DNA of 64,000 bases from Dudresnaya verticillata (GCA_977862235.1 OZ374564.1:1364001-1428000); one strand, 5' to 3'; counted from the first letter of the stretch, positions 10,938 to 64,000 are shown. Numbers and translations: made by a program. The notes: generated by a model not told the origin, from the sequence alone.

Positions 10938-10951
10938 CAATCCCCCCTCAA
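10938..10951 (-). promoter_or_regulatory. Polypurine tract of element A
   Basis: TTGAGGGGGGATTG immediately before the 3' LTR on the minus strand. Confidence 0.9.
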
Positions 10952-31434: not shown

Positions 31435-32066
31435 TTCGCGAATAATTCGCGAATAGGCCACGGCCTAAGCTATAAATTTCCAGAGCTCTACTTTCGAGAT
31501 CTGAACTTCTCAGGTCTCAACCTGAATTTTCCAAAACGCCTTCAGTCTGAGCTGGAGACTTTTGCAGCAGATTCAGGTCGCTGCAATATCCTTGCAGCAT
31601 ACGTTGAAACTGTCACAGTCAAGAAATTCGCGTTGCCCATCGCGTCGCTAGCCCCAGGAATTCACACATTGACAATTCAATTGTCCTAACATTCATACAA
31701 CTAGCCTCTCGGTCGCAAGTCGGGGCAGTAAATTCCCTCCCGTGAGCGAGACAAACGCTCTCACTATCCTCGTGTATGTTCATCCCTCGATATGGAATTA
31801 TGTATCACATGGTTCGAAGCATTTATTGTCACATTGGTTCTGCGTTTGAGTGTGGTATTCAACGGATTTTCTCCTTTCTAGAACCCAAATCTATGTCTCA
31901 GTATTATCAAGTTATTTGAAGCTTGTTTCTTCACAACTACAATGTGGACATGCAAAGAGAAAATACATTAGCACAGCATAACATAGATTTGCATCATATA
32001 TATCTTGGATACTATACAAACCATAGTCAGTAAAGGGATACGGGCGAAGTGAGGCAGAATGTTTTC

Positions 32067-34466: not shown

Positions 34467-34480
34467 GGTTATGGGCCCAG
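34467..34480 (+). promoter_or_regulatory. Copia-type PBS GGTTATGGGCCCAG (internal tRNA-iMet)
   Basis: Directly follows the 5' LTR; same type as the Drosophila copia half-tRNA PBS. Confidence 0.85.
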
Positions 34481-34528
34481 ACGCAAGCCTCTAGCATACT
34501 TGGTTTACGAAACTGAAATACTGAAGAA

Positions 34529-38834: not shown

Positions 38835-38981
38835 GTCGGATACAGCAGTATCCTTATCAGCACGATGACTCGGATGCAAATGCATTATGAAGTTGACTTC
38901 ATATCTATATATCGAATACAAAGTATTTGATATGTAACACTACAAACAACAAATATTGTTGTATCCTTGTACTATCTACAG

Positions 38982-40026: not shown

Positions 40027-42256
40027 GCCGCGGCTGACCCAGGGTTAGCACCCACGCCACGACGGCGACGTCCGGCGCGCTCAGCGCGGGCCATGTCGGC
40101 CATCGAGGCGAACCCAGAGCGCTCGACGCGCTCCCGCCGGTCGCGCGTGCCCCGATTGCGCTGGATCTTATAGAGGGCCCCTGTCTCTGGCAAGAAGCCA
40201 CACACGAACGCGTCGACGCGTGAAGAGAAGTGACGCCTCCGCGTGTGTTTCTCGGTTGCCGCTGCCACTCGGCGGACTACGCCGAGCAGCTCGCCGAACC
40301 CAAACGACTTGCCATCCGAAGGACGGAGCAAGTCCGGGAAACACGGCCTCTCGCTTGACCAGCCGGTCGCGAGGAAATTAATCAGGCGGTCGTCGAAGAC
40401 CCAGCCTGTCCCCTTCGCGAGGAGCTCGCTGCAGTAGCGGCGGCCCACCTCGAAGGCGTATTCATCTGAGCGCCTAGCCAGGAGCTCACGACGAGCAGCT
40501 ACGCGACCGACTGTCGCGTAGTGGAAACCGGTCTACGGTTATCCACGGGATAGTGAATCCCGATGGCGTCTCCCGGTGGGAGTACTACTCCGCTGATGGG
40601 AACCAGGCCGCGTCGAGCGCCGGATGCAACTTGCACCCCTTTGACGGACGTCCTTCGCCCGGGGCCTTGCACACGTCCCAGTCCCGCTCCCCGAAGCACA
40701 CCCCAAAGAGGCGGCGCGCAGAGTCGGCATCGGCCAGACGGTGCGCGAGATCCACGGGCTCGTCGACGGGCACCGTGCGCATCTCTGGGATGGTGGCAGG
40801 CAGGGGCGGGGCCCACTCATCGGCGGGTGTCAGGAAGAGGGCATCGGCTGCCCTGTCCACCCGCCGAAGCTCCTCAAGGGAGGCGACGTAAGAAACGTCG
40901 CAGGGTAACCCCAACGGCGTGAGCCAGACTATGGCGTCCGCCGGGAGGAAAGCGGCATAGGCTGCCGCCCCTCCGTCCACGCTCGCGTGGGCCACCCTCA
41001 GGAGCCGCCGGACGTCTGCCCGAGGCTCCTGCAGCCCGCGCCACTGATCCAGCGGGATCTGGTGGCGCGGCGCCCCCCAGGCGAAGACCGTCTCGGTCGG
41101 GGGCGCGTGCTGTCCAGGGGGCGCCTGGCCCATGAGGGGCGGTCCGACTGAGACCGACACCCCAACAAGAGGCACGACGGGCGCAGCGGTGGACTCACCC
41201 ACGCCCGCGGCCTCCCCCTCTGCGTTGGCAGAGGCCACTGGAGACGGCGTCGGGGCCGTCGACGGCCCCAAGCCACCAGAATCGCGCGGCACAAAGGGTG
41301 CCGCCGCTGCGGGGACTTTCCCCGACCCTGATGGCGTGGGTGACCTCGACCGACTCAGGTCGAGCACCTTCGCCACCATCGGCACCGCGGAGCGCGAAGG
41401 CTGCTCCGCGGGTGCCCCTCCTCGCGTCGACGCGGTTTGATTGCTGTGAGCCGTAGGCTCTGCGCGAGGCGGGCCAGTCGGGTGAAAGACCCGAGCCGCC
41501 GCTACTGGGCGCGGGGCGGCAGAGGCCGCCCCACTCGGGTCCCTCACTCTCTTGCCCTGCGCCGCAGCAAGGGCCACCGCCTCTGACCAGACGTCAGCGG
41601 CGGGCGGTGGGGTGGAGTTGGCGTCGACGCCACCCGCCCCGGCGGAAGAAGCCGGCGCAGGAGCAGCCCCGGCCTTGCCCAGCGCACCCGTCGATGGGGG
41701 CGCTTCTTCTGGCGCAACCGTCGAAGGTTGCGCCTCTTCTGTAGTGACCGTCGAAGGTCGCTCTGCAGTTGGCGCGGCCGTCGAAGGCCGCGCCTCCCCG
41801 CCAGCCGGCGCCCTTGGCACCGGCTCGGCAGGCGCACCCCCTACGACTGACTCAGTCGAGGAGGTGGGCTTGGTAACCGGCGCCCCCTCGGCGGGGGCGC
41901 CGTCCGCGATCGGTTCGCGTGACTCCATCGCCGCGTCGACGCTGGCGATGGGGGAGGAAGTTGAGAGCGTCGAAAGCTTGGAGCGTATGGCACTGGTCGA
42001 CAGGCAGCTGTACGCGTGGGGGAGGGAGTGTTGGTGGTCGTGGTGAGCGATGACCAGACCACCCACCCCTCGGAGCCGCAGAGGCGGCTCCCTAAATAGC
42101 CCGTCGCGGCTCAGCGCGGGCACACCCGACGTGGCATCGACGCCCGTCACCGACGGACGCCCGGGAGCCCGCTGGCCAATCCCGGGCGCCGTCTTGGCCA
42201 CCCCACAGCGTGCGCGTTGTAACGGTCGCGACCGAGGCGTTCGCGCTTGAGGGGGG
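40027..42256 (+). mobile_element. Family-A 3' internal fragment (antisense gene copy with ATG at 41928 on minus; PPT at ~42247-42256)
   Basis: Inverted near-identical copy of ~10942..13170. Stop at 40585 and an indel near 40527. Confidence 0.93.
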
Positions 42257-43867
42257 TGTAGTGCCAGGGGGTTCCCCCTTTTTTCGCTTTCAAGCGGGTT
42301 GATATTCCGCGTCTACCGACGGGCGACCGCCAACGGCGCGCTCAACCCACCTGTGGTGCAATGGCCGTACGCGGCTGTAGAACACCCCCGAGAGTTCGGG
42401 CTCGGGAGGGTAGCTGCGCGATCACGCGAGAGTATCGCGTAAACGCGGTGGTAGAGCTAGGAAGCAACCCGGCGGCGGACTGTAAACACCGTCGGGTTGT
42501 CTGTGGGCGTGGACGCCAAAAGTAGGTGACCACCAGTGAAGGGGCGTAGACGCCAAAGGTGAAGGGAGGATGAAGGGATAAGGGGAGGAGCGGAAGGGGT
42601 AGAAACGGGGAAATGAAGGGAGCCGAGCGCGGCGCGGGGAGGAGCAGCGGGGAGGTGCGCGTAGGGAGCGTCGGGCTGGCGGTTGGCACGGGTTGCGCTA
42701 GCCTTAGCCCGCGGTGACGCCGAGCAACGAGCTCGTGGGTCAGGCGCGGGGGAACTCGGCTGCAGAGCCCATGCTTGGGGTTGGTTTACTGAGGGTGGCC
42801 GGCGCTACTCGCCTTAAGTCCCTGGCCACGGCGGTAGGATAGTTAGGGCTACCATACACTACCTACAATAAACTAACACTGACACCTCAGTGTACCTAGT
42901 GTACACTGAGTGTCGACTGCTGTAAAGGGAAATGTAATTAATAGGAACGCGCGCGGGCAAGCCCAGAATGGGCTGCGCGCGTCCGAAGTGGGCCGGCGTG
43001 GCGACGTGTGCTATCTAACGAGCACACGTGTGTACGCCTTCGCGAGTAACGCGCTGATCACGTGGTAACACGAAAAGGGGCAATATCGTTGCACTACACC
43101 ACCCGCGGGGTGGTGTGGCCAAGACAGCGCCCGGGATTGCCCAGCGGGCTCCCGGGCGTCCGCCGGTGACAGGCGTCGATGCCCCGTCGGTTGTGCCCGC
43201 GCTGAGCCGCGACGGGCTATTTAGGGAGCCGCCTTTGCGGCTCCGGAGAGCGAGAGCGGTCCGGCCATCGCTCACCACGACCGCCAACTCCCCGCGTGCT
43301 GTCCCTTGTCGACAAGCACTGCACGCTCCAAGCTTCGACTCTTTCAACCTCCTCCTTCCTTCCCCTATCGCCAGCGTCGACGCGGCGATGGAGTCACGCG
43401 AGCCTATCGCGGGCGGCGCCCCTACGGAAGGGGCGCCGGTCTCCAACCCCGCCACGTCGACCGAGTCAGTCGCGGTGGGTGGACCTGCCGAGCCGGTACC
43501 AAAGGCGGCGGCGTGCGGGAAGGCGCGGCCTTCGACGGCCGCGCCAGCCGCGGAGCAACCTTCGACGGTCGCTGCGGCAGAGGCGCTACCTTCAACGGTT
43601 GCGCCAGAAGAAGCGGCGCCAACGACTGGTGCGCTAGGCGATGACGGGCACGCTCCTGCGTCGGCTTCTGCTTCCGGGTCGGGTGGTGTCGATGCCAACC
43701 CCACCCCAAAGCCCGCCGCTGACGTCTGGTCAGAGGCGGTGGCCCTCACCGCGGCGCAGGGCAAGAAAGTGAAGGACCCGAGTGGGGCGGCCTCTGCCGC
43801 CCCGCGCCCAGTAGCGGCGGCTCGGGTCTTTCAGCCGACTGGCCCGCCTCGCGCAGGGCCTACAGCT
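42257..43867 (-). mobile_element. Element D fragment: distinct LTR (42257..43098) plus a divergent antisense-gene 5' part (ATG 43388, +)
   Basis: TGTAGTGC...GCACTACA termini. MESREPIAGG... paralogue with TATTTA at 43218. Confidence 0.8.
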
Positions 43868-45210
43868 TGTGGCATAGACGTCAGGTCGAACTGACGTCTA
43901 GCTGCGCTGGTCTCGTAGTCGCACCCAGACCCGTCGAAGGGTGGTAGCGGTGGTGGTAGAGCGGTGGTGTCGGCCGCGCGCGCCGTCGACGGTCGCGGAT
44001 CAACGGCGTCGAAGCCTGAGCGCGCACGGGGCGTACCGTACGCGGGCGGCAGCGGCCGGATCCCTGCGTCCCCGTCGTGGGGCGGCACGAAGCCGCCGGT
44101 GGGGAAAGGAAAAGGAAAGCCTAGGCGGCTAGGGAAAGAGGGAAGCCGTAGGGCGAAGGACTGGGAAAGAAACCCAAAGCAGAAAGGGGCAAGCCTGGCG
44201 TAGGTTGGCTTGCCTGGATTACTGAAGCCCAGAGGGGCGACTACTATATATACTACAGGGCCTGCGGCGGCACCAACCCGGGAGGTGCGCCGGCGCACCC
44301 CAACAAGCGTCGACGCGTACGGGTAACGGCAACCCGGGGGCGCGCGTGGGCCAAACGGTCCACACGTACTCAACGGCTCGACGCCGGAGTGCGCGCGCGC
44401 GTGTCACGCACTCAACGGCTCTGCGCCGGAGTGCATGCGCACAGTGCGCGGGACAGCAGGGCGTTCGACTGCCGCTTACACTAGACGGTGCTGCACACTA
44501 CAAAACAATGAACGTAGAAATTACATGGGAGTTTCAGTGTCACACGCGTACGCATGCACACACGGGCGCCACTGCGCACTTCCTTACAGTTTAGCGGGGC
44601 TTCGGCGCCACCGGCTGACAGCGTGCGCACAGCAGTGCACACGTGGCGCAACTGGTCTTACAGCTGCGCGTGCGTGGCACAGCTGGTCTTACAGCTATGC
44701 CACACAACCCCCCCTCAAGCGCGAACGCCTCGGTCGCGACCGTTACGACGCTCACGCTGTGGGGTGGCCAAGACGGCGCCCGGGATTGGCCAGCGGGCCC
44801 CCGGGTGTCCGTCGGTGACGGGCGTCGATGCCACGTCGGGTGTGCCCGTGCTGAGCCGCGACGGACTGTTTAGGGAGCCGCCTCTGCGGCTCCGAGGGGG
44901 GGTAGTCTAGTCATCGCTCACCATGACCACCAACACTCCCTCCCCCACGCGTACAGCTGCCTGTCGACCAGTGCCATACGCTCCAAGCTTTCGACGCTCT
45001 CAACTTCCTCCCCCATCGCCAGCGTCGACGCGGCGATGGAGTCACGCGAACCGATCGCGGACGGCGCCCCCGCCGAGGGGGCGCCGGTTACCAAGCCCAC
45101 CTCCTCGACTGAGTCAGTCGTAGGGGGTGCGCCTGCCGAGCCGGTGCCAAGGGCGCCGGCTGGCGGGGAGGCGCGGCCTTCGACGGCCGCGCCAACTGCA
45201 GAGCGACCTT
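43868..45210 (-). mobile_element. Family-A fragment: 3' LTR 43868..44704, PPT, and start of the antisense gene (ATG 45036)
   Basis: High identity to 10103..~11444; truncated at 45210. Confidence 0.93.
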
Positions 45211-48945: not shown

Positions 48946-51848
48946 TCACTCCACCAGTTTGAGGATGGCCAATTTCCCCTCTTCGCGCTGGGATACGCTG
49001 GTTGTGCGTAGCAGTACACCCAGCGTCCTCCCGTCCGCGCCCACTTGCACCGTCATGATGTCCTCCTCGAAACTGGCCATCACTTGCTCCACCCCGTCTA
49101 TGACGCGCACAAGGTCGTTCCGGCAAGCCTCGAAGCGCGCCCGACCGAGCATGGCGTCACCTGCAGCAGGCACTTCTGTTGGCGGCAAAAACTGCCGGCA
49201 AACGTCTTCCCAGTCTTGCCGCTCCTCGTTCTCGACCTCGGGGTGAATGCACTTTGTCGCCTCGACGTCCCAGACCCAAACCACCCCGTTCTTTGACTGC
49301 GCCACGACACGCATCCCGTCATTGCTTACCGCCACGCGCTCGATCAGATGCAAGCTCCCCTTCATGTGACGCCCTACCAGGTCCCAGTCTGAATCAACGT
49401 CCCATACGCGGATCACACCACGTCGCGTTCCTGACACGACTCGGCACCCATCAGCACTAAATGCGACTGCCGAGACCGATCGCGTGTGTCCCAGGAGACG
49501 CTCCCCTACCGTCTGTCCCGTATCGGCGTCCCACACTTGAACTCCGCCTGAATTCTCCCCGGACACCACGCGGGTGCCGTCAGTGCTAACGCCAATGCAC
49601 GACATCCCGCCCAAGTAACTAGTGAAAGGTCCTTCGCCACTCTGCTGCGATTCCACGTCCCATATGCGAACCGTCCCGGCCGCTGCCGTCGCCACACGAG
49701 TACCTTCAACGTTAATAGACACGCTCTCTACCCAGCCAGCATGTCCCGTTGAAAGCACCGTCACCAGCTCTCCTGTTTCAGCATCTGTCACTTTGACGGT
49801 ACGATTGCGCGCGCCTGATGCCACTCGCGGACCGCAGGTACCGTTGCCGCTAACTGCAACTGTTGTTACGCCGTCCCTGTGCAAGGTTAGGTACTTCGCC
49901 TTCAGTTTTTCTGCTTTCGTGTCCCACGCACGTACCTCATTTCGAAGAGTGCCGGAAACCACTCGAGTGCAGTCCGGACTAACCGCGACGGCCGCCACCC
50001 AAAAGTGACCTTCTGGGGCCAGTTCCGCTGCTTGCCCTCGTTCAACATCAAAGACTTGGAGTCTGCTATCAGGCGACCGCGACAACACATACGCTCCATC
50101 GCTGTTCTTTGTGAGAGCATCCACCCAGTCGCCAACGCCCGTCAGAGGATCCCCAGTTTCTGCATCCCAAACTCGAGCAGTCCCGCCATGTGTAATCGAC
50201 ACCACACGGATGCCGTCGGCCGTTGCCACGACGTTGTTCACTTCATCCCAGTGTCCAAGGAACGCATCACGTACCATTTCCTCAGACTCTGTTCTCCACA
50301 TACGTACTGACCGATCGCTAAAACCCATCACGACAATATCTCCATCTACAGATATAGCCCCAACACGTGCTTCGACTATCTCATGCTGACCTTCTCCAGC
50401 TGAACTCTCCTCGTCGACGATCCCTCCACCTTCACCATGACGCTGTGTACTCCCAACTTCTGCCCCTAACGCTGTTTCATTTTCGAGCTGCAGCTTCACA
50501 ATCTTGCTTTTCCCACTTTCATGCTTCGCGACGAAGAGGGCGCCGTCGCTGTTCGACCCACAACTTGTCACTCCTTGTCCTTCGATGAAACGAACATCAT
50601 AAACTACATATGGAACTTGAAATGTCTCCAACAGAGAGTCATGTGCTCCCTTCAAACACGATGTTACTGCCCGGATCCACGGTCTACGTGCAGACTTCTC
50701 CACTCGATGTATGAAATCTCCTACCCAGTTTGGTTTCGATTTCGTTGCTAGCAGTCTTGCATATAACTGAAACTAACTGCCCGTTGTGTTCCCCACCCCA
50801 TATAGGAGACTCATTCGCACAATCTTGGACAAAGCCTTTAGAACATCAGCCTTCTTCGCAGACTCGTCCACAGGCGCCGGGTGGGAACCTAGGCTACTGG
50901 CAGTTTCAATCTCACGCCCATCTTGTCCCCATTTCTTCAAATAAGACTCAACATCACTCTCGAGAAGCAAAACAGTGTTCATCGCCATCATCTTGAATAG
51001 CCATTGGGGGCTGCTAAGCACATTGTACACATCCGGGCCTCTCCCTGCAGCGTGAATAATTCTACACATGTTTCGCACGATGTAGCCGTCATCCTCGACA
51101 AACGCCGGCCAGCACTCCCCATCATCAATACTTTCCGGTAACTCTGACCTGTACGCTTCCAGTATCTGGTCGAACCACTTCAACAATTCCCCATTTCCTT
51201 TTTCTTCGGCTCCTTTTGCTTCAGACTGTGTGAAGTCGTGTGTAAGGTCGTGAAGCCGGAGCCCAAAACACAGCTTACCTCCAACATGTCGATACTCAGC
51301 ATCGGCTACCCCCACCCGTACCATTGCTTCTATCTTCTTCTTTGTCTCCACATCATCCGCAGTGCCCCAAATATGGCGCAGGGCTGGCACAGGAACCCAG
51401 TCCTGTTTCTGAATCACACACAACCGCCGATGCAATTCATGGTAGGTCGGCTGTGATCGGGCTTTCCCTCCCTCACGCGGCTTGTCCAGAATATCCAAGG
51501 AAACAAGCAGCGCTACACCATACCCTGGATAATTGTCTTTCGTCACCTGCTCTACTAATTCATGGCGTCTGAAAGACTCAAGATATACATTCCATGCAGC
51601 CCTCTTATTGCCGCCCATCGCGTCTCTGTCCGACTTAACTCCCGTTCCACACAGACTCAAAGCAAAAGGTAAGCCGTCGCAGATCTTCAGGATTGCATTA
51701 ATCGCTTCAGAACATTCAGCATCTTGCACCTCTGCTTCGACGTCAGCCTCCTCAACCCCCGCTACGCGCAGTAAAATATTCCTCGACTCTGGACCCAACG
51801 GATCTCGCGGATTGAATGTCACCGTGTCTCCTAGACTTCGAGCCTGTC
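48946..51848 (-). pseudogene. NLR/APAF-1-like protein: C-terminal NB-ARC part plus WD40 repeats; N-truncated and frameshifted near 50780
   Basis: GLPL-type CDGLPFAL, MHD-type LHDL, then many GH...WD repeats. No P-loop found upstream. Confidence 0.8.
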
Positions 51849-52835
51849 ATGTACAGCATTCTCGTTATGTGTTGTGTAGCACTGCAGTAAACGTGAGTGA
51901 TGCAAGCGCTCGAGGTCTCCTGGTCTACAAGTCAGAACGCAGATGCCCCAGGGTATTGTTGTACAATAATGGAGCTCTCCCATTCGCTGCTGATTCTGAG
52001 ACTCCCACCCGGAAGTGCGGGTGGTGCAGGGATCCCGAGTCACTCATCACTGTGATTCCAATTCAAGGGTATGGAACCCGGCACTCAGATGATGCTTTCG
52101 CTATAGCTATGTATTACAATACATCGGTAATACTAGTACAAGGTCCCAATCGTGGTGAACCGTGCACGGTGCACATGGACAGCGCATAATGTCACCAGTC
52201 GTTCTGATTCCACTTCACAAGCAGAATACTTGCCACAAATCGGTGACCGACTGCCTGCAGCCCACACATGTTCCGAAAGCATACCGGGGGACTACACAAT
52301 ATTGTAATTAGGGGACGAAGAAATGCCTCCTTTGACTGGGTCAGACGACTAACGATAGGTAGACCGTTGCTCACTCACTGGTGATTCCGTTTCGCATATG
52401 CACACAGAACAGCATAGGAGGTTATCTGGCGAGGTTTCAGCACGTGACACCACTCCGGTGCCCACTGCGTTCTCTTCCCGATATTCTTGTTCCACCGCGC
52501 TGCGCTGACCGCCGCCAAAGGCCGCTTTTGACCTCCCACCCTTTCTTTTCTCACGATCGTACGACGCGTACTCAAAAGCGCTATTGACGGCACTGATCCC
52601 AGCGAGACGAGGCCCTTACTGCTATCGTGGTACAAAATGCCTCGCACAAGAGAACGTCGCACTGCTTTGCGTCAAAGGCCTGTCACTGCGGACCGACATG
52701 CCGTCTCCGTGAAGGGAGGGAACAATTCCTCGGCCAAGACTATCGATAAGGCGACGGCGGAGACGGCCGCGGAAGAACCCATTCGCAAACAGGGGCGGAA
52801 GCGCGCCCGCAGTAACCAGCCCTGGCACGCAAATC

Positions 52836-55800
52836 ATGTCAGCGTCGAAGAAAGTAGTGCTGTTGCTGAACGGAGAGGAGGTGGGTACGGCTGATCCAAT
52901 GACTCCGGCGTCTCCGGAAGAGGCAGACAGTACAGGTTCATTCAAAGTTAAGATGCATGGAACGTGGTTAAGAGAGGTGCAGCGGAAGAAGGAGACATGG
53001 ATAGTCATCTATAATCTCCGTATTCGGAATGGACATGGGGACAAGAGGTACATGTATAAGTATCCCGGTATAAAGTCTCCCCCCACCACTCTAGCTGGTC
53101 TAAATGTGGGTATTCATGTATGGGACAGGTAGCAAGTCCGCACTGTGAAGCCGCAACCTACAAGCGGTGCTGGAGAACCCGGCGTGGCGACCGGGGAAGC
53201 TTGCCCTCGGATAGAAATGGAGCAACCGGGTGAGAGGCACACTGTTCGTGCCCGGACGTCAACTAGGCGGTCAGGCCGTAGGGGGGTCGGGGACTTGCTC
53301 ATAAGCGGACGGTGACGAAAAAAATCACCCGTACCGGTCAGTCTGATCCCAGCGCTCAGCCACACCAAGAAGGTAATGACCGCACTACCCGCCCGTATGT
53401 GCCCGCGGCCGTACCAATTAGAGGGCAAAGAAAACACGGAAGCTGGGTTATCAAAACTGGAAAGTAATGACGCGGCGCCGCGTGGGAGCGCTCCAAAACC
53501 AGCCGAGGCTGAACGGGAGAAAGGAGATTCCGGGAACGGCGCACAAGAAGACAATACTCCCGTCGACACTACAGCAGAAGAATGTGCGGGAGGTCGTGAT
53601 CACTAGTCTGAAGAAGAGCATCCTGACGTCGAGACTGCAGACGATGGGGAGGATGCTGATTCCGACACGCCGGAATGGCACCCCTCCGAAGGGGAGGAGA
53701 TAACACTAGAAGGGCGTGGAGACGGCCAGGCTACTGCTAGGACGAGCCGGAAGAGGAATTATAGACATGATGCTCGTCCGAAAGGAACCCCATCGGGGCA
53801 TTTGATGGCTGCGAAGAGGAGAAAGGTAGTGGAGGTGATGGAGATGCAGGATATCTCAAACATTTTCTGCTGCCAAACGAAACAATGCTTCGGAACCATC
53901 GAGTCAGTCTACATCAGGACTGAGTCACGCAAAATGATGGACAAGAATCGCGCGGAAAGGAAGCGATACCTCACGGGACTACTGGAACCCAACTCCAACA
54001 TGTACTTCTTCAGCGGCCGGCCGGTTTGTTACTCATTTCTGGACAAGGCTTTCGGTTTCTCTAGAGACCTGCAGTCGGCAGTGAAAGGGACAAACAAGAG
54101 CCGCGAAAGGAAAGGGAGGGGGCTGATAGTTGGTGGTACTTCTACGGAACAGATGGAGGTGATAACTTCGTTCTTGGAGCGCCTCGCAGAAGTCTCTGTT
54201 GATTCGAAACCAGACAAGGCTGAAATCCACCTCCCCTTCTATGAGAAGCTCGCAGTCTATAACACGTTTGTGACTGAGCACCGCACTCTGTACCCTAACA
54301 GAGCAACACCATCACAGAGCTACTTTTATAGTATCTGGCTCCGCAGCTGTCCGCACATTAAGGTCAGGCGAACTCACCGGTTTTCAAAATGCTCCGAGTG
54401 CGAGGAGATCAAAGATCTTCTCGCAAAAGCGGCAACGGATCTAGCGGGAACCGAAGCGCTTCGCGAGCGGCGGGCAAGGCACGTGAGAATGGTCATGCAG
54501 GAGCGAACAGAATATCGCAAGAAGTGTGAGATGGCTTCGATGTATCCGCAGAACTATTGCTCACTCATCATCGACGGTGCTGACCAGTCCGCATTTGGAC
54601 TGCCACACTTCCACATCAAGGTGAAGGACACACGCGGACACGGAATGAAGGCCAAAGTAATCGGCGTTCTAGAGCATGGCCAAGTCCCACATCTAAACCT
54701 TTTCACGATGACTGCAGAGTTCGAAACAGGCGCAAACCATGTCATCGAAGCTTTGCATCGCGTATTGATGGCACGCAGAGAGAGGATGCCACTGAAGGGT
54801 ACGTTGTTCCTCCAGGTCGACAACTGTACTAGGGAGAATAAGAACAGGTTTATGTTCGGCTACTTGGAGTATCTCGTTGCTATGGGTGTATTTCCGGAAG
54901 TGCATGCGTCGTTTCTCCCCATCGGTCACACGCATGCCGATATCGATCAAGTTTTCAGCTGCACTTCGAAGAGATTACGCGTTCGAGACGCCATTATCAT
55001 GGACGACCTCATCCACGAACTACGGCAATCATACACTCCTCAACCGCGTGTCACGGAGATGTTGCAGATTATTAATTTCTCCGGGTTGTGCAAAGAGACC
55101 AGATGCCTCGGGCGTACCGAGCCCATTTCAGAATATCGGTACTTTAGGTTCAGTGCGGAAGGAGCTAAAGACACAGACGCCGGTACGTTCAAGACTCTCT
55201 GCGAAGTGAAGAGGGGCTGCAAAGACTCTTGGAAACCGTTACATACGCGAGATGGCCAGGGGGATTTTTGTTATTTCCCCCCAACCTGCACCGGACTCCA
55301 CCGACTCCCTGTCGAGCACCGCCAGATGAACACGAAGTAACCAAGCGTCTACGATCCGCCGAGACCAGAATCAGCAATCACAGTAAGCTACAGAAGCTGT
55401 TGGCACTTTGTGATAGAGTTTACGAGGACCGTGAAGACCCATTCCACTGGGCATTGGCGGATGTGTTTGAGTTGGAAGGGGCTTACAAACCGGATGGGAG
55501 CGGCCCTAGCGCACCCTCGGAATCGGGGTCAGACGCTGAGAATGTAGTGGAACAGGACCTCACTTACACAAAGAACAGCTTTGTAGCCGTACTAGGCGAC
55601 GACTGTACCGAAGGATGCCCGTTCTGGCTTGGGCAGGTGATGAATTGGGAGACGGATGGGGGGGCAAGGTTACCAATTTGCAAGTAGAGTGGTACCAGAG
55701 AAGGAGTACTCGAGGGAATACTTTCACCGGGCGTTATCAGAAGGCGAGAATAACCGATGCAAATGGACATGTCAAACCGTGGAGCGATACGGTCCCGGGG

Positions 55801-55968
55801 AAGTCGGTTTTAGTGGAGTTCGCGCGTTTAACCAACTCTGGAATACCCGTCAGGGTGCAGCGAAAGATCAGGGAAGCCCTAGAGATGCGAAAGAGAGGAG
55901 ACGATCCGGAAATTAGTACTTCGGTAGAGGCGGGGGGACCAGGAGCAAATGGCATGGAAAGCAAATAG
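52836..55968 (+). pseudogene. Sola1-like (DUF7869-type) DDD transposase with accessory N- and C-terminal domains
   Basis: IIDGADQ (D at 54573), QVDNCTRENKN (D at 54819), FLPIGHTHADIDQVFS (GHTHADID at 54924-54947), and KCSEC. 52836-55340 is one frame with stops at 53130, 53313 and 53604. Frameshifts at G-runs near 55260 and 55660. Confidence 0.8.
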
Positions 55969-56293
55969 CTTGGGGTGAGAGGGAGGCGAAGCAGGAATAA
56001 AGTTGTGTCGCTAGTGGCAAAATGGGGTCAAGATTCTGGGCGAGAATTGGAAAAGGGTTAGAGTGTATGCATGTAATGCCACGGAACAGAGTGTGCAGGC
56101 TAGCCTCATGACGCAGCTGCGTCATGAGGCAGCATCTTTGCTGGGTAAACCGGATTGCTTGTACAATCACAGTCGTGTTGTAAGCAACCTTAATGCCTGC
56201 AGCACGCCAAATAAGTGAGAAAAAAAGAACCACTGTTCTCTCTTATGCACTGATACAGAATGCAATTTCGGCTTTCTATCAACCACACGGGTT

Positions 56294-56719
56294 GTGATTA
56301 ACGTGTCCGACCTGCCAAATCGTACCTTGCACACTTTGGGTGCGATCACACCGCGGCACCCGCGGGTGCCCCCAAGTGAAGGGATGGTTCTACCCAATAC
56401 CTCAAGATCTGGCGGCGTGGAGGGTCTCAGGGGCTCTGGGAACCGCGCTCCCGCCATGGTTGTTGCTCGTCCGCAGGTGCAGAATCCGACACCAATGTTA
56501 GCAGGAGACGGGACGGGCTACATGACTTATGAGCGTGTCCGCGTGATAGTTCAGATGCTTTGTGATCTCGGGTCCTGTTCTGTCCTTTTGTCTGGGGATG
56601 AACTAAGGCTTGCAGTCGAAGCAGGCACGGACATGACCGAAACTGTTTTATATGCCAATGGGAAGACCTTGCAGGGGCTCGCGTTTGCGGTACATTTGCT
56701 GGTTTTAGGTCAACATTGA
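56294..56719 (+). CDS. Hypothetical protein, possible transposon cargo
   Basis: 141-aa ORF with no recognised motif. Confidence 0.25.
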   Translation: MINVSDLPNRTLHTLGAITPRHPRVPPSEGMVLPNTSRSGGVEGLRGSGNRAPAMVVARPQVQNPTPMLAGDGTGYMTYERVRVIVQMLCDLGSCSVLLSGDELRLAVEAGTDMTETVLYANGKTLQGLAFAVHLLVLGQH

Positions 56720-57062
56720 CTCAGAGTTTGATCTTGAGCACATTGCTCTGGTGGAGAAGAAGTCAAGGACAATCGCGAGTGTTCTCATTCGTATTAATCC
56801 GCATGCAGATTGATAGCATGTGCACATTGACGCTCAGGTCCATCCATTCATCACTACTGGGCTGGCGAGCAGCACGTTTGGTGTCCGCAATTCACATCTG
56901 CAACGATTTTTGAACCTTATCGAAGAGGAGACTTGCTGCGCTTGATCGGAGTGCATTTATATCTAGGCATTCCGGACGTATGATGTACCCTGGAAGCCGC
57001 CGGTCTCTTGTAAAGGTATGAAGCTATACCATTACCTAATTTAAAAGTAACCTTGTTTTGGT

Positions 57063-58924
57063 TTACCAGGACCGCGACAAGCTCAATCTTGCTGTCTGTC
57101 GGTAGGCATTAAAGACAGATCCTCCTAATACAACTAGCATGCCAACCACAGAAAAGTAAACAAAGTCAGACGGTAGGACCTCTAAGGCCCCAACAGAGTG
57201 CTCCACAGAGTAGACAACATCAATCCCTACGGCAGCAACCTGATCAAGTTGCTGCCGTCGGGAGTCGATTGTGACTTTCACTGCCATACAGTGCTGCGAC
57301 CGCTACCTGTCTCAGATCTGCAACACGATTGCCTCCGGACATGAATCTTGTCCAAGGGGACGAAAGTTCTAGCAGCGGTGTATACGAAAATGACCGTTCC
57401 ATTTAGTCCACAATATTGCGACGGGCAGGGCTTCCAGCGTCCACGAACAGTTTGGAAACAAGAGCAATCTGCCCAGTGTCTAACCGCATGAGGATAGGTT
57501 GCTCTGTGAACCCATGTTTCTTCAGGGTTACATTCAGACCATCCTCTCGAGTGCCAATAAGAGAGCTGCAATTCATTGCACGTAGCATCCTGAGGGGTGT
57601 TTCCGATCCCGTTCGAAGCCTCCTCTGGTCGTTACCGTTCGAAAGAGACGTTGACAACATGCACACAGGCAGCTGGCCACAAACGCCTGTACCGATACCA
57701 AAAATGTTTTCAGATAAAGGCCCAACAGCTGAGCAAACCATGCCAAGGACCATATCGCGTATAGCAGGCATATTCTTGAGGGGTTCGTACAAGTCGATTA
57801 CGTTGATTTCCTGCTGCAGCAGAAGAGTGTTCCAGGAGCTGTAGACAAACACATTACAGCTCTTCACTACGAAAACAGGACCTACGGCATTATTGTGCAT
57901 AGCAATGTCCAGAACTGAGCCTTTCCGACATTCAATAGCATTGCGTGTACCAGCATGTTTTCTTTGTCCTCGAGGACAGATCTAAAACCACCAAACGCAC
58001 ATCTACGTCATCGTACTTGAGCCATAGTTCACATCCCATTGTCACACGCACCGGAGGATCATACAATTGCCTCCCTGCAGTGTATCAGCGGCGACTTCGG
58101 AAACCACAATTTGTTAGGGTAATGACCGGTGCTACGTCTCGCTCCTTGCAAGGAAGCCGTGCACCTTGTGGCCGCTAGCCCCGTATGACAGCCAGCCGCG
58201 GTCGACCTGCCCATTCGGAACGACGTCACATCCCTGCAATGCGATGCCCCTTTCGAAACCCTCTCCATCCACCCGCACGACGTAAGCACAAACACTCGTG
58301 CCCTTCTGCCTGCGGATCAATGGTAGCTTGTTCAGCCTGGAATTCCGACAAGAACTTCCCAAATATGGCAGTGCCAGTTCCGAAGCTTACTGCCTTCACA
58401 AAGCTACCGGTCTCTCCATACCGGCACACGACGACAACAAGCTCCCGATGGATAGAGGCGAGAGCACAGAGTCTCTCTCCGACATGATTCTTCCACAGGA
58501 GTTCCCCTCCTCCCCGCGTGTTGTGCCCGTAAAGAGACCCAAGCGTGGACAATCCGACAAACAGCGACTTACCTGGGACCTCTTAGAAGGCGCCGTCAAA
58601 GAGATGCACCCGCACTTCCTCCCGTGCCCACACATCAGCGTCACCACCATCTACCCACAAGCGACCGCCTGGGGCCGATCTTAAGACTGTCGTGGCAAGC
58701 CGCCAGGTGAGTACGCGGTTGCCGGTTTCCAGCTCTGCTTGCAAAACGCCTATACTATCACTAGTCCAGTTCACGTTGTTGTACGTTACAGCCAGCCCCG
58801 TCCATGCGTGCACAAGAACGTTGGGATCATCTTGGGTGCATGGCCGCACAACGAATTGGACATCATCTGAGGAGACATTGCATCCTCGGCGCGAGCACGC
58901 GCGCGCGTCTACGACATACTTCAC
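57063..58924 (-). pseudogene. Decayed hypothetical gene (~600 codons)
   Basis: Chain of protein-like minus-strand ORFs; 58583..58924 and 58226..58552 share a frame. Confidence 0.4.
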
Positions 58925-59460
58925 AACGCACGAACAAGACTGCGAGGTTCATTGCGCGGTTGCCAACCTAAACAGCCCCATGCACGGTTGCAAACTAGGC
59001 ATGCTTCGTCTTGACGAGAATTGTTACGCGAGACGAGCAGGACCCGCGGGGGAGGCGTCGGAGTCTGTGGCGTCTCGAGTGCAGACAGACGTAATGCAGA
59101 CGCAGTCTGGGTGGATGTGCTCGCAGTTGACAGCACGACGGATAGGGACGCGGGATGCGCAGGCTACTGCGGTGGCGCATACGTCAGCAAACACATCACA
59201 GTGCGCGACGGGGGCACTTCCGCGAGCGCTTCGCAGTGCGGAGCATTTCCGCAGACGCGGGCTGGGTGAATGGGCTCGCAGTTGACAGCAGGATGGATAG
59301 GGACCGCTGGAGGTACCGTTACGCGACACAGTGTGTCGCCTCGAGCTTGAAAAGAGAGGAGGTGGTGATGGTAGGAGACGGCGGTGACCACGAGGACGGT
59401 GCATGCGGTGAGGTTGCGGTGCGTGGAGACATGCTCCGCAGCAGGCGGGTGACCAGCAAC

Positions 59461-59765
59461 CGGATAGCTAATTCAGTGAGACTTCCGCCGGAGCTATCGG
59501 CGCATATGGATTTTTTTATAGCTCCCTGTCGCCGACATATTCGAAAAGCTATTTCTTAGGTTTCCCATTTCGGCGACTATGGGAGCTATGTAGCTAACGG
59601 AATGCCGCGAGTGTAAATATCTATTTTCTTAGGTATTTTGATTTCGGGAAACACGGGAGCTATATAGCTCCCGCGGAGGAGGAAATCAAAAAGCTAAGAA
59701 AATAGATATTAGATTTCTCCGGCGCCATTAGCTATTGGCTGATATTCATATTCGTTTATAGCTTT
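59461..59765. promoter_or_regulatory. AT-rich palindrome cluster built from AGCTA/TAGCT units
   Basis: Perfect CGGGAGCTATATAGCTCCCG at 59654-59673 inside a ~29-bp-arm inverted repeat (59616-59710). Second hairpin at 59518-59589. Confidence 0.8.
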
Positions 59766-60193
59766 TCACTTTGGTCCTCCTGCGTTTGCTACTTTTCCCG
59801 AGACGCCCAGCCGCACCGCTCCGAGCCCGACATCATCTGAAAACGCACTGCCACTCAAGAAAACGCACACCACACAACACCAGCGCCCTTGACAAGGGCA
59901 GCACACGACTGGAACCCTTTTCACAGCGTAGGTCGAGCCCTCGCCCCCGCACCGTCCCCACTGCTTCCGCCCTTCGCATCCGGCGTCGTGCTCGGTTTAG
60001 CGCTCACTGCAGATGATGGCTGCGTGGGCGGCGACTTTGTTCCGCTTGGAGGGTCCGTCGGCGTCGGTGCTTTTGATGTTTGTCGTGTGTAGCCGCCAGG
60101 GATTTTCGGCCGTGCGCGGCCGTGCGCAGCCATAGCCGAAAGAGACGATGGCAATCTGCATAGGACGCTTGTCAGCTGCATACACTACGAGCT

Positions 60194-60592
60194 GTGATAG
60201 CCCAACGCCTGGATATGAGGGAGGCCCCGCAGCCCTCCGCATGGAACGATACGAGATGGGAGCGCATAAATCCATGGCGGGCTGGCCACCGACGATGCGG
60301 GTCTGGGCGGCGCCCGGGGGGCGACGTCTGGCAGAAAGACGGGGCAGTCTGCATAGTTGCGCGCAAGCATGTGTTCTTTGCGCGTGCCGCGAAGGGAGAG
60401 ACAAGCGTTGCTGCTGTGATGGAAAGCATGCGCTTGCTCAAGAAAACAACTGGCATCGAAAACTTTGAGAAGGCGACCAGTGGGCATGATGCTGAAAGTA
60501 GAGGAAAGCGAGAGTTGCTACTGCGAATGGTTGCAGACGATGTTTTACGCGTTGTTGATGAGGTGAAAGACTTGCAGAAGGTAGCTTCATAG
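60194..60592 (+). CDS. Hypothetical protein convergent with the MTase
   Basis: ORF with a helical charged C-terminus; 5' part possibly frameshifted. Confidence 0.3.
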   Translation: MIAQRLDMREAPQPSAWNDTRWERINPWRAGHRRCGSGRRPGGDVWQKDGAVCIVARKHVFFARAAKGETSVAAVMESMRLLKKTTGIENFEKATSGHDAESRGKRELLLRMVADDVLRVVDEVKDLQKVAS

Positions 60593-60777
60593 ATGATGAG
60601 AATCACCCAATGCACACGGAGGGCATGCAGCCGTTTCATGTTTCACGGCGTTTGGTCGCGACGAGCGTGCATGGATGCCATAGTTCCTTCCAGCTGGAAA
60701 TGTGCAGTGGACCGTCCGCCGCCCTCGACTGGCAGAATGTACATCCGGTATAGCCCAAAAATAGATGGAGCAGACTT

Positions 60778-63708
60778 TCATGGCTCTCTATCACAACCCT
60801 CCATCATGTGAAGATCCCATGCGAAGAATGCGTTTAAGTCTCGCAGCAGTGCTGGCGGTTCCTCCGGACCCTTAAAAGTGTACTTATACGGCCTCTCCGC
60901 GAACTCATCGCGAACTTTGAAGGAAAATACAGCCACGAGATGCTCTCCCTCCTTGCCGAGCTCCCGCAACCCGTGCTGGTGTATTTCTGTCTTCAGTCCG
61001 TGGGCGTCGTTACCCGGTTGCAATACTGCCTTCCCAACCTTATCTGGACCACACAGCAGCCAAACTGCGTCACCACCTTTGAGTTGCGGTCGATCGCATG
61101 ACAGCGGTTTCTCCCTAGGCTTTCCTGTACGTTTCCCAGACTGTTGCTTACCTGGGGACATCATTAGAGTCTGTGATTCCCTTTCAGACTGATCAGTACG
61201 TACCCTCTTCGTGTCCGGCTGTTTGTCTATCTGTTTTGCCGAACGCTTCTGTGCTTGGACCCCTGCATCTTGAGAAGACCCGTTCTGCTTCTCCTCTGCC
61301 ATGCGCTGCAGGCGTGCACGAGCCAGTCTGTATGTTTCCGGGTTTCTTTCGACGAGGTAACACTCTCTGTCTGTCCGAAGGCAGGCAATGCCTGTAGTCA
61401 TTGTCCCCGCATGAGAGTCTAGGACCGAGCCGCCTTCAGGGCAGAAGGTTATGATGATCTCAGTAAGTGCATCAGGATTTTTCTCCTCCGTCAGAACTAG
61501 TGCCCTGCTAGTCCCTGGCTTCATGAGCTTATCTCTGGGTACGGGAACAGAGGTCATCACAGCAAACTTTCGTCGCTCCTTACACGAGATGAAGTGGTAC
61601 GGGCTGGAGAGGTCTGGAGAGAAAGAGTTCTTGGATGTACCCTTGCGCCTTCCGAAGGCTGCTGCCTCAGCCCCATTCTGCAGTCCCTTCTTGCGACTTA
61701 TCTGGACAGTAGTTGTGTCTTTGCAGAGTAAGAAAGGGTACTGCGGACTATCGAAATTGTTGTCGGTAAGTGCCTTTTGAAACAACGGGAATTTCAAGAA
61801 GCTGCAGAACAGAAACACCCAACCACCCTCCTTCACAACACGTCCACAAAACTCGCAAAGGCGCTTGATGTCTTCTTCACTGAAATGGTTTGCGTATGCA
61901 GTTCCAGCATTTGACATTCCCTTCAGGGTACCATACGGAGGGTCAGCAAGCACGAGGTCAAAGAGAGGACTGCATTCATTCCTGATTGATTGGTCATATT
62001 CCTCCCACTTCATCTGATATGTTCGTATCCTGCATTTGGAAAGCGGGTCCTTCTCCTCCACATCAGAACCGGTATCCAGTCCCTTCGACTTGCGTGTTGA
62101 AGAAACAGAACGACTACCCGGTCCAATACACTCGTTCGGGATGTCATTGTTACCAGCTAATGCGCCTGTGTCGTTGTCGTCTGTAGGATCCAGGACCGAT
62201 TGCGTATTCTGCCTCTGCGTGTCAGTTACAGTATCCTTAACGGCTTCCGACTGCTTTTGGCCACCAAGGGCCCCCTTAGAGTCTTTTTCTTTCCCCCCTT
62301 GAGGTTTTCCATCAACTTCAGAGCTCGTCTTATCAATCTCAGAAGCTGAAACTATTGGCTTCTCAGTTTCTCCTATGTCTGGAGATGTATCTTTCCCAGA
62401 ATCAGTTTCTGCTTGGAACTGGTGCTTGAATTTCTTTTCCTTACCTGGAGCTTGTTGCGGGCATTCCCTTCGATAAGCGGCTATCAAGGGTTTGAGCACA
62501 TCGTGGTCATTTCCGAAGTTTGCACGCACCTCGTGGTCCAGCTTCGTTGAGTGAAGGAGGTTCTGGCGAATGACGTTCATACCTTCAGGCCAACTCTGGC
62601 TCTCGATAAGGCGTTCGAATTTCCGTGCTTCCTTCATTGCTGCTTTCGCCCTTCCAAATTGTTCCAGAGTCTGAAAGCTGGTGACTGACCGGAAACTCTG
62701 AAGTCGATGTACTTCGCGTAGTCGGTACGAAGTTGAAATCTGTATTTCTACGCCATCCTCCAGTTTGTTCCCATTCATGAAGGCGATTGCAGACTTCAGT
62801 GATGAAATGTGGATGAACTTTCTGTAGACTCGGCAGTCAACCTTCCTCATTGCTCCGTCCTTGTCGAGTGTTGTCCCTTCCTTGTCTCCCGTCATCTTTG
62901 CAGCTAGATCCGGTCTCTCGTCATTTGTAATTTGTCCAATTGCGTGAATTACTCTCGTATCCAACCGCATAACTGTCTGAGCAGTCTGTTTAATGGTGTT
63001 GTTCCGATATAACTTCGAACCGTCATACGCCTCCACAATTTTTGGGGCATTTGGTCGTTTCCCAGTCTTGGCCTGCAACCTCTCCGCCTCCTCCCGCAGA
63101 CCGCGGACCAGGTCAAAAAATGTAGTCTCGATAAAGTATCCCTGGTCGTGTTTCTCATTCTGATGTCGTGCCAGCTGCCGGAGCTCATGGACGTTTTGCC
63201 CACTCTTCAAAATCGTTACAGGCCATGCGAAAGACTGCCAGACTGTTGGGAACTCCTCCATTAACTCCAAAATAACGCAATGTCTATGCAAGCCGTCAAC
63301 AATGCCGTACCATTTGGAGCGATTGTTTGCCTTCTCCAAAGCCTCCTCCTCCGTGTACTCCTTCCCTTCCTCTTTCATATTCTTGAAATACGCAACGACG
63401 TGACCCCGCAGAGACCCTGTCATTTCGATGACAATTGGAGAGTCAGACCCGGCAACGTACCCAATAGTCCCTTCACCGCCTTTCTTCTCTGATGAGTGCA
63501 GATGAACGCGAGCTTTGAGGCGTTCCACTCCGGAGCGCACCACGGGTCTTATTGCTGTTAGCGGGAAGCACGCCCTGGGGTCAATTCTCATATTCACGGA
63601 ACCCTCCATAACGTCAGAAAACAATGCCCTCCTCATGCTTGCAGAAGAGCAATTTTGGTCCGCTTCAGATTGTGTAACAGCACCCTTTCCTGAACGTTTC
63701 TTGCCCAT
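60778..63708 (-). CDS. ParB/Srx-like domain + beta-class DNA amino-methyltransferase (N6-adenine or N4-cytosine) + C-terminal domain shared with the transposase
   Basis: Uninterrupted ORF; first ATG at 63708 gives 976 aa. YGIVDGLHR (IVDGLHR at ~63283-63303), catalytic DPPY (61933-61944), then EKNP...PEGGSVLDSHAGTMTTGIAC (SAM-binding motif I after motif IV). Confidence 0.9.
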   Translation of the reverse strand: MGKKRSGKGAVTQSEADQNCSSASMRRALFSDVMEGSVNMRIDPRACFPLTAIRPVVRSGVERLKARVHLHSSEKKGGEGTIGYVAGSDSPIVIEMTGSLRGHVVAYFKNMKEEGKEYTEEEALEKANNRSKWYGIVDGLHRHCVILELMEEFPTVWQSFAWPVTILKSGQNVHELRQLARHQNEKHDQGYFIETTFFDLVRGLREEAERLQAKTGKRPNAPKIVEAYDGSKLYRNNTIKQTAQTVMRLDTRVIHAIGQITNDERPDLAAKMTGDKEGTTLDKDGAMRKVDCRVYRKFIHISSLKSAIAFMNGNKLEDGVEIQISTSYRLREVHRLQSFRSVTSFQTLEQFGRAKAAMKEARKFERLIESQSWPEGMNVIRQNLLHSTKLDHEVRANFGNDHDVLKPLIAAYRRECPQQAPGKEKKFKHQFQAETDSGKDTSPDIGETEKPIVSASEIDKTSSEVDGKPQGGKEKDSKGALGGQKQSEAVKDTVTDTQRQNTQSVLDPTDDNDTGALAGNNDIPNECIGPGSRSVSSTRKSKGLDTGSDVEEKDPLSKCRIRTYQMKWEEYDQSIRNECSPLFDLVLADPPYGTLKGMSNAGTAYANHFSEEDIKRLCEFCGRVVKEGGWVFLFCSFLKFPLFQKALTDNNFDSPQYPFLLCKDTTTVQISRKKGLQNGAEAAAFGRRKGTSKNSFSPDLSSPYHFISCKERRKFAVMTSVPVPRDKLMKPGTSRALVLTEEKNPDALTEIIITFCPEGGSVLDSHAGTMTTGIACLRTDRECYLVERNPETYRLARARLQRMAEEKQNGSSQDAGVQAQKRSAKQIDKQPDTKRVRTDQSERESQTLMMSPGKQQSGKRTGKPREKPLSCDRPQLKGGDAVWLLCGPDKVGKAVLQPGNDAHGLKTEIHQHGLRELGKEGEHLVAVFSFKVRDEFAERPYKYTFKGPEEPPALLRDLNAFFAWDLHMMEGCDREP

Positions 63709-64000
63709 CCAGCCAAAAATGTAATTCAGCACTTTTGAACAAACGGTCGCCGTACGTCTTTCCAACTGGTTGCCGAAGTTGTTTCCAACTGGTTGTGTTA
63801 AGCTGATGAGCACGGGATAAGCGTTGCGGTTTCCACGAAGAGCACTTCGTGTTTACAACAATATGTCCGTAGTCAGGTCAGTGGTCACTGCATTGAAAGA
63901 CAATATATATCATGCCGGTTTCCAGCTTTAACCTGGAAACGAAGTTTGTCCGCATGACTAACAGCCTCACGTACGGTTTTAACTTTGCCGGAAAGATAGT

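What the first reader, a model, noticed from the sequence alone, without database searches (positions are those of the whole stretch)
52637..63813. Candidate new system: eukaryotic DNA transposon pairing a Sola1-like transposase with a prokaryote-type ParB-DNA methyltransferase
Seen: a DDD transposase (DG, DNC..ENKN, GHTH.DID) and, ~5 kb away on the other strand, an intronless 976-aa protein. That protein has a ParB-like IVDGxHR domain, a DPPY motif and a downstream SAM-binding motif (beta-class order). Known: ParB-MTase fusions are typical of phages, and some eukaryotic retroelements carry MTases (adenine MTase in DIRS elements). Inference: a cut-and-paste element that writes its own 6mA or 4mC mark, for self-recognition, anti-silencing or control of transposition. 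I cannot rule out a prior description in comparative surveys of eukaryotic adenine MTases.
Basis: partly seen in the sequence, partly recalled or inferred. Interest (0 to 1): 0.9.

Follow-up and report, generated by a model that had tools for sequence, protein, structure and literature searches.

The report
Algal transposon's bacterial-type DNA methylase
This stretch holds an intact bacterial-style ParB-plus-DNA-methylase gene and a broken cut-and-paste transposase of a transposon lineage in which the two genes travel together; the methylase likely binds a palindrome array at the element's end and would mark it with methyl-adenine, a layout already reported from a brown alga, and here the two genes probably come from two neighbouring sister elements rather than one.

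Summary
Both genes are real. The 976-aa ORF (60778-63708, -) is intact and models as ParB-like + helical region + beta-class amino-methyltransferase (Z 23.5 to CcrM). The DUF7869 transposase (52836-55968, +) is broken by three stops and two frameshifts. The pairing is genuine in the lineage: 6 of 8 fetched transposase loci with enough upstream DNA carry a relative of the methylase, always head-to-head, and the two trees agree. It is not new: Ectocarpus Sola1-1_Ec32 has this layout (PMC12477816), and this scan noted the kind four times on other DNA. In the window the genes are tail-to-tail and 4.8 kb apart. A host-gene remnant and a 300-bp AGCT palindrome array (a likely element end) lie between them, so they probably belong to two sister elements. 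Not found in print in my searches: a ~97-aa beta-barrel domain sits on the methylase C-terminus in some families and on the transposase N-terminus in others, and 26 of 49 relatives have lost the catalytic motif. Activity, target base and termini are untested.

The parts
60778..63708 (-). Intact 976-aa accessory gene: ParB-like domain (aa ~31-188), helical region with predicted HTH (aa ~197-436), acidic disordered linker, beta-class amino-methyltransferase (aa ~550-810), linker, C-terminal shared beta-barrel domain
   Evidence: (mean pLDDT 82, pTM 0.74)
63283..63303 (-). ParB-like IVDGLHR motif; R54 (63547-63549) and N184 are also conserved in the family
   Evidence: structural matches 5k5d Z 8.5, 6ryk Z 7.2 (rmsd 2.7, 97 aligned), 8qa8 Z 5.7
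61933..61944 (-). Catalytic motif IV, DPPY
61402..61422 (-). SAM-binding motif I, LDSHAGT (D764 in 48 of 49 and G768 in 44 of 49 relatives)
60796..61080 (-). Shared ~97-aa domain, methylase C-terminal copy; SH3/Tudor-like beta-barrel at low Z only
   Evidence: pLDDT 94.6; best Z 4.7
59458..59765 (.). AT-rich palindrome array with 11 AGCT cores, beginning AACCG; candidate terminal repeat of the methylase-bearing element and candidate binding site of the ParB-HTH part
   Evidence: (fold z -8.0, 0 of 100 shuffles); AACCG terminus of Sola1-1_Ec32 from a supplement row. No inverted partner in the window
52836..55968 (+). Broken DUF7869 (Sola1-like) DDD transposase gene: 3 in-frame stops, 2 frameshifts
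52839..53129 (+). Shared ~97-aa domain, transposase N-terminal copy (27% identical to the methylase copy)
54573..54947 (+). Catalytic core with conserved aspartates D323 (54573), D405 (54819), D445/D447 (54939/54945), numbered on ORF 53607-55337
56103..56130 (.). Perfect 28-nt palindrome 135 bp downstream of the transposase stop; role unknown
   Evidence: z -4.0
57224..57263 (.). 40-nt palindrome; role unknown
   Evidence: z -5.5
57290..58950 (-). Broken remnant of a host EMC1-like gene lying between the two genes; the upper boundary is estimated by eye
   Evidence: EMC1_C E 4.4e-07 when read with X at stops, covering about 57295-57855; E 9.6e-06 for ORF 57403-57981

Best explanation
The intact gene is the ParB-like/amino-methyltransferase accessory gene of a Sola1-like cut-and-paste transposon lineage, whose protein likely binds the AGCT palindrome array at the element's end and would methylate adenine there to shield or license the element; the broken transposase to its left is probably a remnant of a neighbouring sister element. 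Shown: the domain anatomy, the intact DPPY and SAM motifs, head-to-head linkage and congruent trees in relatives, the array and the lesions. Inferred: (1) The element starts near 59458 and runs past the window's right edge, where its own divergent transposase would lie. (2) The ParB-like and HTH parts load on the palindromes and so restrict the enzyme to its own element. (3) The mark is 6mA rather than 4mC (DPPY; best folds are N6-adenine enzymes). (4) The mark or the bound protein keeps the ends transcribable or accessible to transposase. (5) The ~97-aa barrel is an exchangeable targeting module used by either protein. The host is probably a red seaweed (context only).
For: Fold: VIA Z 23.5 CcrM, 23.0 M.BceJIV, 21.7 M1.HpyAVI; Foldseek E 7.5e-11. 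Linkage with DNA in hand: 6 of 8 transposase loci with at least 2.4 kb upstream carry the gene divergently, 0.45-2.1 kb away (L003, L004, L012, L013, L017, L018; the last two are one family). None of the 46 loci shows a convergent copy, although most are too short downstream to tell. Paired identities correlate, Mantel r 0.87-0.93. Palindrome arrays also flank or separate the genes in L003, L004 and L013. For two elements: tail-to-tail layout; host-gene remnant between; array facing the methylase and starting AACCG like Sola1-1_Ec32; the shared domain is on only one gene in 4 of 4 inferred pairs that have it but on both here; the two window copies of that domain group with different families (82/80 and 87/85); five lesions against none (P about 0.01 under equal decay).
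Against: No activity, expression or modification data. 26 of 49 full-length relatives have a degenerate motif IV and only 15 a canonical one, so methylation is not the universal function. Other transposon-borne adenine methylases showed no activity in E. coli (bioRxiv 10.64898/2026.05.21.726589, section 9). The terminus is weakly supported: AACCG occurs 66 times in the window, the 4 bases before it are CAGC (not AWWT, not ending in A), and no second end is in view. Both window genes fall in the same small clade of paired elements, which also fits one rearranged element. Ectocarpus giant elements often keep cargo genes and a dead transposase. Domain-tree supports are below the tool's star level, and N-termini of homologous transposases may be mis-called. 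ParB Z-scores are middling and Pfam finds no ParB family.
Confidence: 0.55

Rival explanations
1. One giant element: convergent transposase and methylase with captured host fragments and an internal array, now non-autonomous and moved in trans.
For: Both genes sit in the same clade of paired elements. They lie within 5 kb. Ectocarpus giant elements carry cargo and dead transposases, and Bostrychia Plavaka elements have internal inverted-repeat arrays beside the ParB gene.
Against: All 6 linked loci with DNA are divergent. The shared domain is on both genes here but on one in the inferred pairs. No inverted repeats enclose the two genes. A broken NB-ARC-WD40 gene lies about 1 kb left of the transposase.
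Confidence: 0.3
2. The accessory protein works mainly as a DNA-binding scaffold or pseudo-enzyme: it coats or bridges the element's ends through ParB-HTH and the methylase fold, and any methylation is incidental.
For: 26 of 49 relatives lack a canonical or near-canonical motif IV yet keep the SAM-site aspartate (48 of 49) and full length. Loss of the ParB arginine goes with loss of motif IV (15/8/5/21, Fisher p 0.0015; relatives are not independent). L004 has a degenerate motif in an apparently intact two-gene unit.
Against: The window copy and its nearest relatives keep DPPY and the ParB arginine, as do the distant L013 (DPPF) and L017 (DPPW) proteins, which suggests catalysis is ancestral and still selected in this branch.
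Confidence: 0.25
3. The enzyme is active but writes 4mC, for example on the C of AGCT, or methylates host chromatin in trans rather than its own ends.
For: The rotifer 4mC enzyme (Z 19.3) and M.PvuII (Z 19.1) score nearly as well as the adenine enzymes. The array core AGCT contains both bases.
Against: DPPY is typical of bacterial N6A and SPPY of N4C enzymes (PMC8885841 passage). The best structural and NCBIfam matches are adenine enzymes.
Confidence: 0.15
4. The methylase has been domesticated as a single-copy host gene and the transposon remnants around it are relics.
For: Intact 976-codon ORF in a field of pseudogenes (transposase, EMC1, NB-ARC).
Against: No intron in the aligned span; the array is preserved 1 kb away; the family is large and element-linked (259 representatives at E<1e-30).
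Confidence: 0.1

Closest known systems
Sola1-1_Ec32 of Ectocarpus (PMC12477816; section 5 part 2, passages and supplement rows seen; figures and FASTA supplements not seen)
   Same: Sola1-type transposase plus an opposite-strand ParB-like/N4C-or-N6A methyltransferase gene (1104 aa there, 976 here). Same self-binding, self-modifying hypothesis. Its AACCG terminus and 282-bp imperfect TIR resemble the 308-bp array starting AACCG here.
   Different: Different host (probably a red seaweed). The passages seen mention no domain shared with the transposase and no catalytic decay. Sequence homology to the Ectocarpus protein could not be tested.
Plavaka accessory genes PAG2/PAG3 of Bostrychia and other red algae (bioRxiv 10.1101/2025.02.11.637652; section 8 and passages read, supplements closed)
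   Same: Red algal DNA transposons with a PF01555 methylase (PAG2), a ParB-like protein (PAG3) and tandem inverted-repeat arrays next to the ParB gene.
   Different: There the methylase is fused to SET and ParB to a 2OG oxygenase, on EnSpm/Plavaka, Mutator or Zisupton elements. Here ParB and methylase are one chain, no SET was found, and the transposase is DUF7869. Their supplement table 6 may list Sola-type cases; I could not see it.
Bacterial and phage beta-class amino-methyltransferases (CcrM 6pbd, M.BceJIV 8urk, M1.HpyAVI 5hek; PHROG 67)
   Same: Fold (Z 21.7-23.5), motif order and DPPY; PHROG 67 E 6e-26.
   Different: Fused to ParB-like, helical and barrel domains. No full-length relative found in viral or prokaryotic collections with the patterns used.
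Bdelloid rotifer N4CMT (PMC8885841, passages seen)
   Same: Bacterial-derived beta-class methylase acting in eukaryotic chromatin; structural match Z 19.3.
   Different: Host gene with SPPY making 4mC; not carried by a DNA transposon.
DAM-carrying DIRS and LTR retrotransposons (bioRxiv 10.64898/2026.05.21.726589, abstract, section 9 and passages; PMC4738411, passages)
   Same: Eukaryotic mobile elements carrying prokaryote-type adenine methylases, proposed to favour their own transcription.
   Different: Retroelements with a methylase domain inside the polyprotein; the text search found no mention of ParB or Sola in the preprint.

Membership tests
Sola1 DNA transposons | DDD transposase core | tested here: met
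   DUF7869 E 2.3e-46; aspartates 323, 405, 445/447 conserved in at least 99% of 120 homologues. That DUF7869 with these motifs equals Sola1 is recalled, not from a call.
Sola1 DNA transposons | Similarity to reference Sola1 transposases (Repbase) | not testable with these tools
   No named reference among the 120 listed homologues; Repbase is not held.
Sola1 DNA transposons | Terminal inverted repeats | tested here: inconclusive
   One candidate end at 59458-59765; no inverted partner within the window; the other end may lie beyond 64000.
Sola1 DNA transposons | 4-bp target-site duplication, typically AWWT (PMC3845634 passage) | tested here: inconclusive
   Only one end in view; the 4 bases before AACCG are CAGC, which does not fit AWWT.
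Sola1 DNA transposons | Dispersed copies in the host genome | not testable with these tools
   No genome is held for this window.
Sola1-1_Ec32-type element (transposase + ParB-methylase) | ParB-like domain fused to an N4C/N6A methylase | tested here: met
   Model matches ParB-family chains over residues 30-359 and 31-188 (Z 8.5, 7.2, 5.7; middling) and methylases at Z above 19; R54, DG and N184 conserved; PF01555 above cut-off.
Sola1-1_Ec32-type element (transposase + ParB-methylase) | Both genes on opposite strands of one element | tested here: inconclusive
   Met in relatives (6 of 8 informative loci). In the window the two genes probably belong to different elements.
Sola1-1_Ec32-type element (transposase + ParB-methylase) | Sequence homology to the Ectocarpus 1104-aa protein | not testable with these tools
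   The paper's FASTA supplements cannot be read here.
Beta-class DNA amino-methyltransferase | Motif IV before motif I, and the permuted fold | tested here: met
   DPPY aa 589, motif I aa 763; Z 23.5, rmsd 3.2 over 227 residues to CcrM.
Beta-class DNA amino-methyltransferase | SAM-dependent methylation of DNA, and the base modified | not testable with these tools
   Needs an assay or long-read modification calls.
Plavaka PAG2 (methylase + SET) | SET domain on the methylase; EnSpm/Plavaka transposase | tested here: not met
   Pfam at E<=1 lists no SET family for the methylase ORF and only DUF7869 above cut-off for the transposase ORF.

The most novel reading that the evidence does not exclude
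A widespread eukaryotic DNA-transposon clade runs a phage-style self-marking system: a ParB clamp loads on terminal palindromes, a fused methylase writes 6mA there, and an undescribed ~97-aa barrel domain that has moved between the methylase's tail and the transposase's head steers both proteins to the same marked DNA or chromatin, while about half the lineages have turned the enzyme into a pure binder.
Probability: 0.25. Interest if true: 0.75.

Novelty: new member of a known kind. Interest (0 to 1): 0.4.

Why it matters
If active, this would be a cut-and-paste element that writes its own bacterial-type mark, an idea proposed for algal elements but, in the papers I read, never tested. This copy is a good test case: an intact, intron-free gene with canonical motifs and a defined 300-bp candidate target 1 kb away. 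The domain exchanged between methylase and transposase points to a shared targeting step. The many relatives with decayed catalytic motifs give natural controls for binding against methylation.

Tried and rejected
Own-genome search: no genome held. Sequencing runs: none was listed, no RNA holder listed. Methylase alignment against metagenome, viral and prokaryotic contigs: 0 relatives among 96, 33 and 34 pattern matches. Transposase alignment against viral and prokaryotic contigs: 0 among 123 and 94. These scans depend on short patterns and do not prove absence. TIR/TSD enclosing both genes: none found; the near-repeat AACCGGATTGCT at 56148 is at chance level (4 matches against 3.4 expected). 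An intron removing the transposase stops: the one GT..AG candidate I checked by eye (53129-53606) is out of phase, and the frameshift near 55260 leaves no room for an intron. Family of the shared domain: no Pfam hit over that part, no Foldseek match at E<=0.001, VIA best Z 4.7 with Tudor, KOW, PWWP, BAH and CAP-Gly tied, so no family is assigned. The Atlas gave no answer. Complex prediction of the two copies of the shared domain: no verdict, score 0.00, alignments not used. The contig-length match P0139/P0049 (4334) was rejected because both genes cannot fit. Literature: 9 searches; none surfaced a description of the shared domain or an activity test for a Sola-borne enzyme. Iyer 2011, the original Sola paper and the journal version of the Bostrychia paper were not read.

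Full report
1. Observation. The minus strand carries one open frame from ATG 63708 to stop 60778, 976 aa. It has IVDGLHR at aa 136-142, DPPY at 589-592 and LDSHAGT at 763-769, and matches PF01555 above cut-off. The plus strand carries a DUF7869 transposase (E 2.3e-46). Full-length homologues align from 52851 to 55881 across three frames, with stops at 53130, 53313 and 53604 and two frameshifts. The transposase is therefore dead and the methylase intact. The genes converge, 4.8 kb apart.

2. The methylase. An AlphaFold2 model from a 90-sequence alignment has mean pLDDT 82 and pTM 0.74. Residues ~550-810 match beta-class amino-methyltransferases: CcrM Z 23.5 (rmsd 3.2, 227 aligned), M.BceJIV 23.0, M1.HpyAVI 21.7, rotifer N4CMT 19.3, M.PvuII 19.1. 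The N-terminal part matches ParB-family chains at middling scores: 5k5d Z 8.5 (rmsd 4.0, 212 aligned), PadC 6ryk 7.2, KorB 8qa8 5.7. The HTH assignment for aa ~221-261 is inferred from the helix pattern and from recalled ParB anatomy. The family is large: 259 representatives at E<1e-30. I aligned 49 relatives of at least 780 aa (4, 45 of the 150 listed). Motif IV is canonical in 15, near-canonical in 8 and degenerate in 26, while D764 is kept in 48. The ParB arginine is kept in 20 and goes with an intact motif IV (Fisher p 0.0015; kin are not independent).

3. Linkage in relatives. A transposase scan of metagenome contigs gave 46 loci. Among the 25 loci with continuous, unspliced-looking matches that I tallied, eight have at least 2.4 kb upstream of the match (the other 21 loci are contigs of 1.1-5.5 kb with weaker matches and gave no methylase hit). 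Six of the eight carry a methylase relative head-to-head, 0.45-2.1 kb away: L003, L004 and L012 (close, tblastn E 1e-42 or better), L013 (distant, PF01555 E 1.9e-18), and L017/L018 (one family; weak, profile E 5e-5 and 6e-4; OTU + ParB-like + DPPW). L002 and L022 are broken copies without it. Ten of the 14 were my pick of top full-length hits. One match is impossible by size and was dropped. One cluster matches at three lengths (10330, 9690, 12365). These pairs are inferred, as I could not see their DNA. Across 12 pairs the identity matrices correlate (Mantel r 0.93; 0.87 among close pairs without the window) and the two trees are largely congruent; shared host history could add to that.

4. 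A shared domain. The methylase's last ~97 aa are homologous to the first ~97 aa of the transposase (27% identity, E 5e-11; profile probability 99.3%). The domain is at the N-terminus of 8 of 120 transposase homologues and at the C-terminus of 22 of 150 methylase relatives. It folds confidently as a small beta-barrel (pLDDT 94.6) but resembles SH3/Tudor/KOW/PWWP barrels only at Z<=4.7, so its family is open. Conserved H, Y, Y, W and D residues would suit a binding pocket; that is inference. In the 4 inferred pairs that have it, it sits on one gene only. Its tree needs two changes of host protein, but supports are modest and one origin is not excluded.

5. One element or two. Between the genes lie two palindromes, an EMC1 remnant and a 308-bp array with 11 AGCT cores, the densest AGCT cluster in the window, folding at z -8. 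It starts with AACCG at 59458, the terminus listed for Sola1-1_Ec32, which has a 282-bp imperfect TIR. L004 likewise begins with a palindrome array next to the methylase 3' end. Divergent layout in all linked loci, the domain on both genes, the grouping of the two domain copies with different families, and five lesions against none favour two sister elements, about 65:35. The methylase's own transposase would then lie beyond 64000. Against this, AACCG is common (66 times), the flanking 4-mer CAGC does not fit the known target preference, no second end is visible, and both genes come from the same small clade.

6. Mechanism. Most likely the ParB-like and helical parts bind the terminal palindromes and the methylase marks them in cis, probably with 6mA, keeping the element expressed or its ends competent. 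Every functional step is inferred. The frequent decay of motif IV and the negative E. coli assay for other transposon-borne methylases keep a binding-only role at about 25%.

7. Prior art. PMC12477816 describes a 21.5-kb Sola1 element with an opposite-strand 1104-aa ParB-like/N4C-or-N6A methylase gene and proposes self-binding and self-modification. The Bostrychia preprint describes methylase-SET and ParB-2OG accessory genes with inverted-repeat arrays on red algal elements. Iyer et al. 2016 (PMC4738411, passages) list eukaryotic adenine methylases derived from phage ParB loci but not this element in the passages seen. The scan's own notes hold four earlier cases on other DNA; I saw them after finding the paper. 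Host: the window is eukaryotic (Gypsy and Copia elements, NB-ARC-WD40 gene). NB-ARC-WD40 architecture is reported from the red alga Chondrus (passage), so a red seaweed is likely but not shown.

8. Verdict. A real, new member of a recently described and still untested kind. The exchanged barrel domain and the widespread catalytic decay are the additions. Interest 0.4.

Noticed in passing
window 48946-51846 (-): Broken NB-ARC-WD40 gene (stop at 50773-50775 between the domains; 5' part decayed) directly left of the transposase; WD40 E 1.9e-32, NB-ARC weak at E 0.19.
   Followed up: partly
window ~56700-56950 (+): Weak match to a pyridoxal-dependent decarboxylase domain (E 0.018, below cut-off); possibly a second host-gene remnant between the two genes.
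   Followed up: no
window 4263-5160 and 30677-31435: Two inverted copies (79-84% identical) of a repeat with a GATC-rich palindromic array (10 GATC in 310 bp); either long TIRs of a 27-kb nested element or two copies of a non-autonomous repeat.
   Followed up: no
window 34165-38981: Copia element with 158-bp LTRs 99% identical and a frame change between its two long ORFs.
   Followed up: no
window 10103-14067, 22645-23479, 40027-45210: Several 95-99% identical copies of a GC-rich repeat with a 688-aa ORF (12001-14067) of unknown kind, next to Gypsy pol genes.
   Followed up: no
L017:711-4283 (-), L018:3-1151 (-): Distant version of the accessory protein with an N-terminal OTU protease domain (E 6.7e-07) before the ParB-like and DPPW methylase parts.
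   Followed up: partly
L008:2948-4650 (+): A DUF7869 transposase followed by a SET-domain ORF (E 8.7e-17) and an unassigned 266-aa ORF; the lineage carries other chromatin cargo too.
   Followed up: no
L013:1095-8339: AT-rich (34% GC) intact-looking unit with a 1335-aa ParB-like/DPPF methylase, a 300-bp palindrome array between the divergent genes and a 947-aa transposase.
   Followed up: partly
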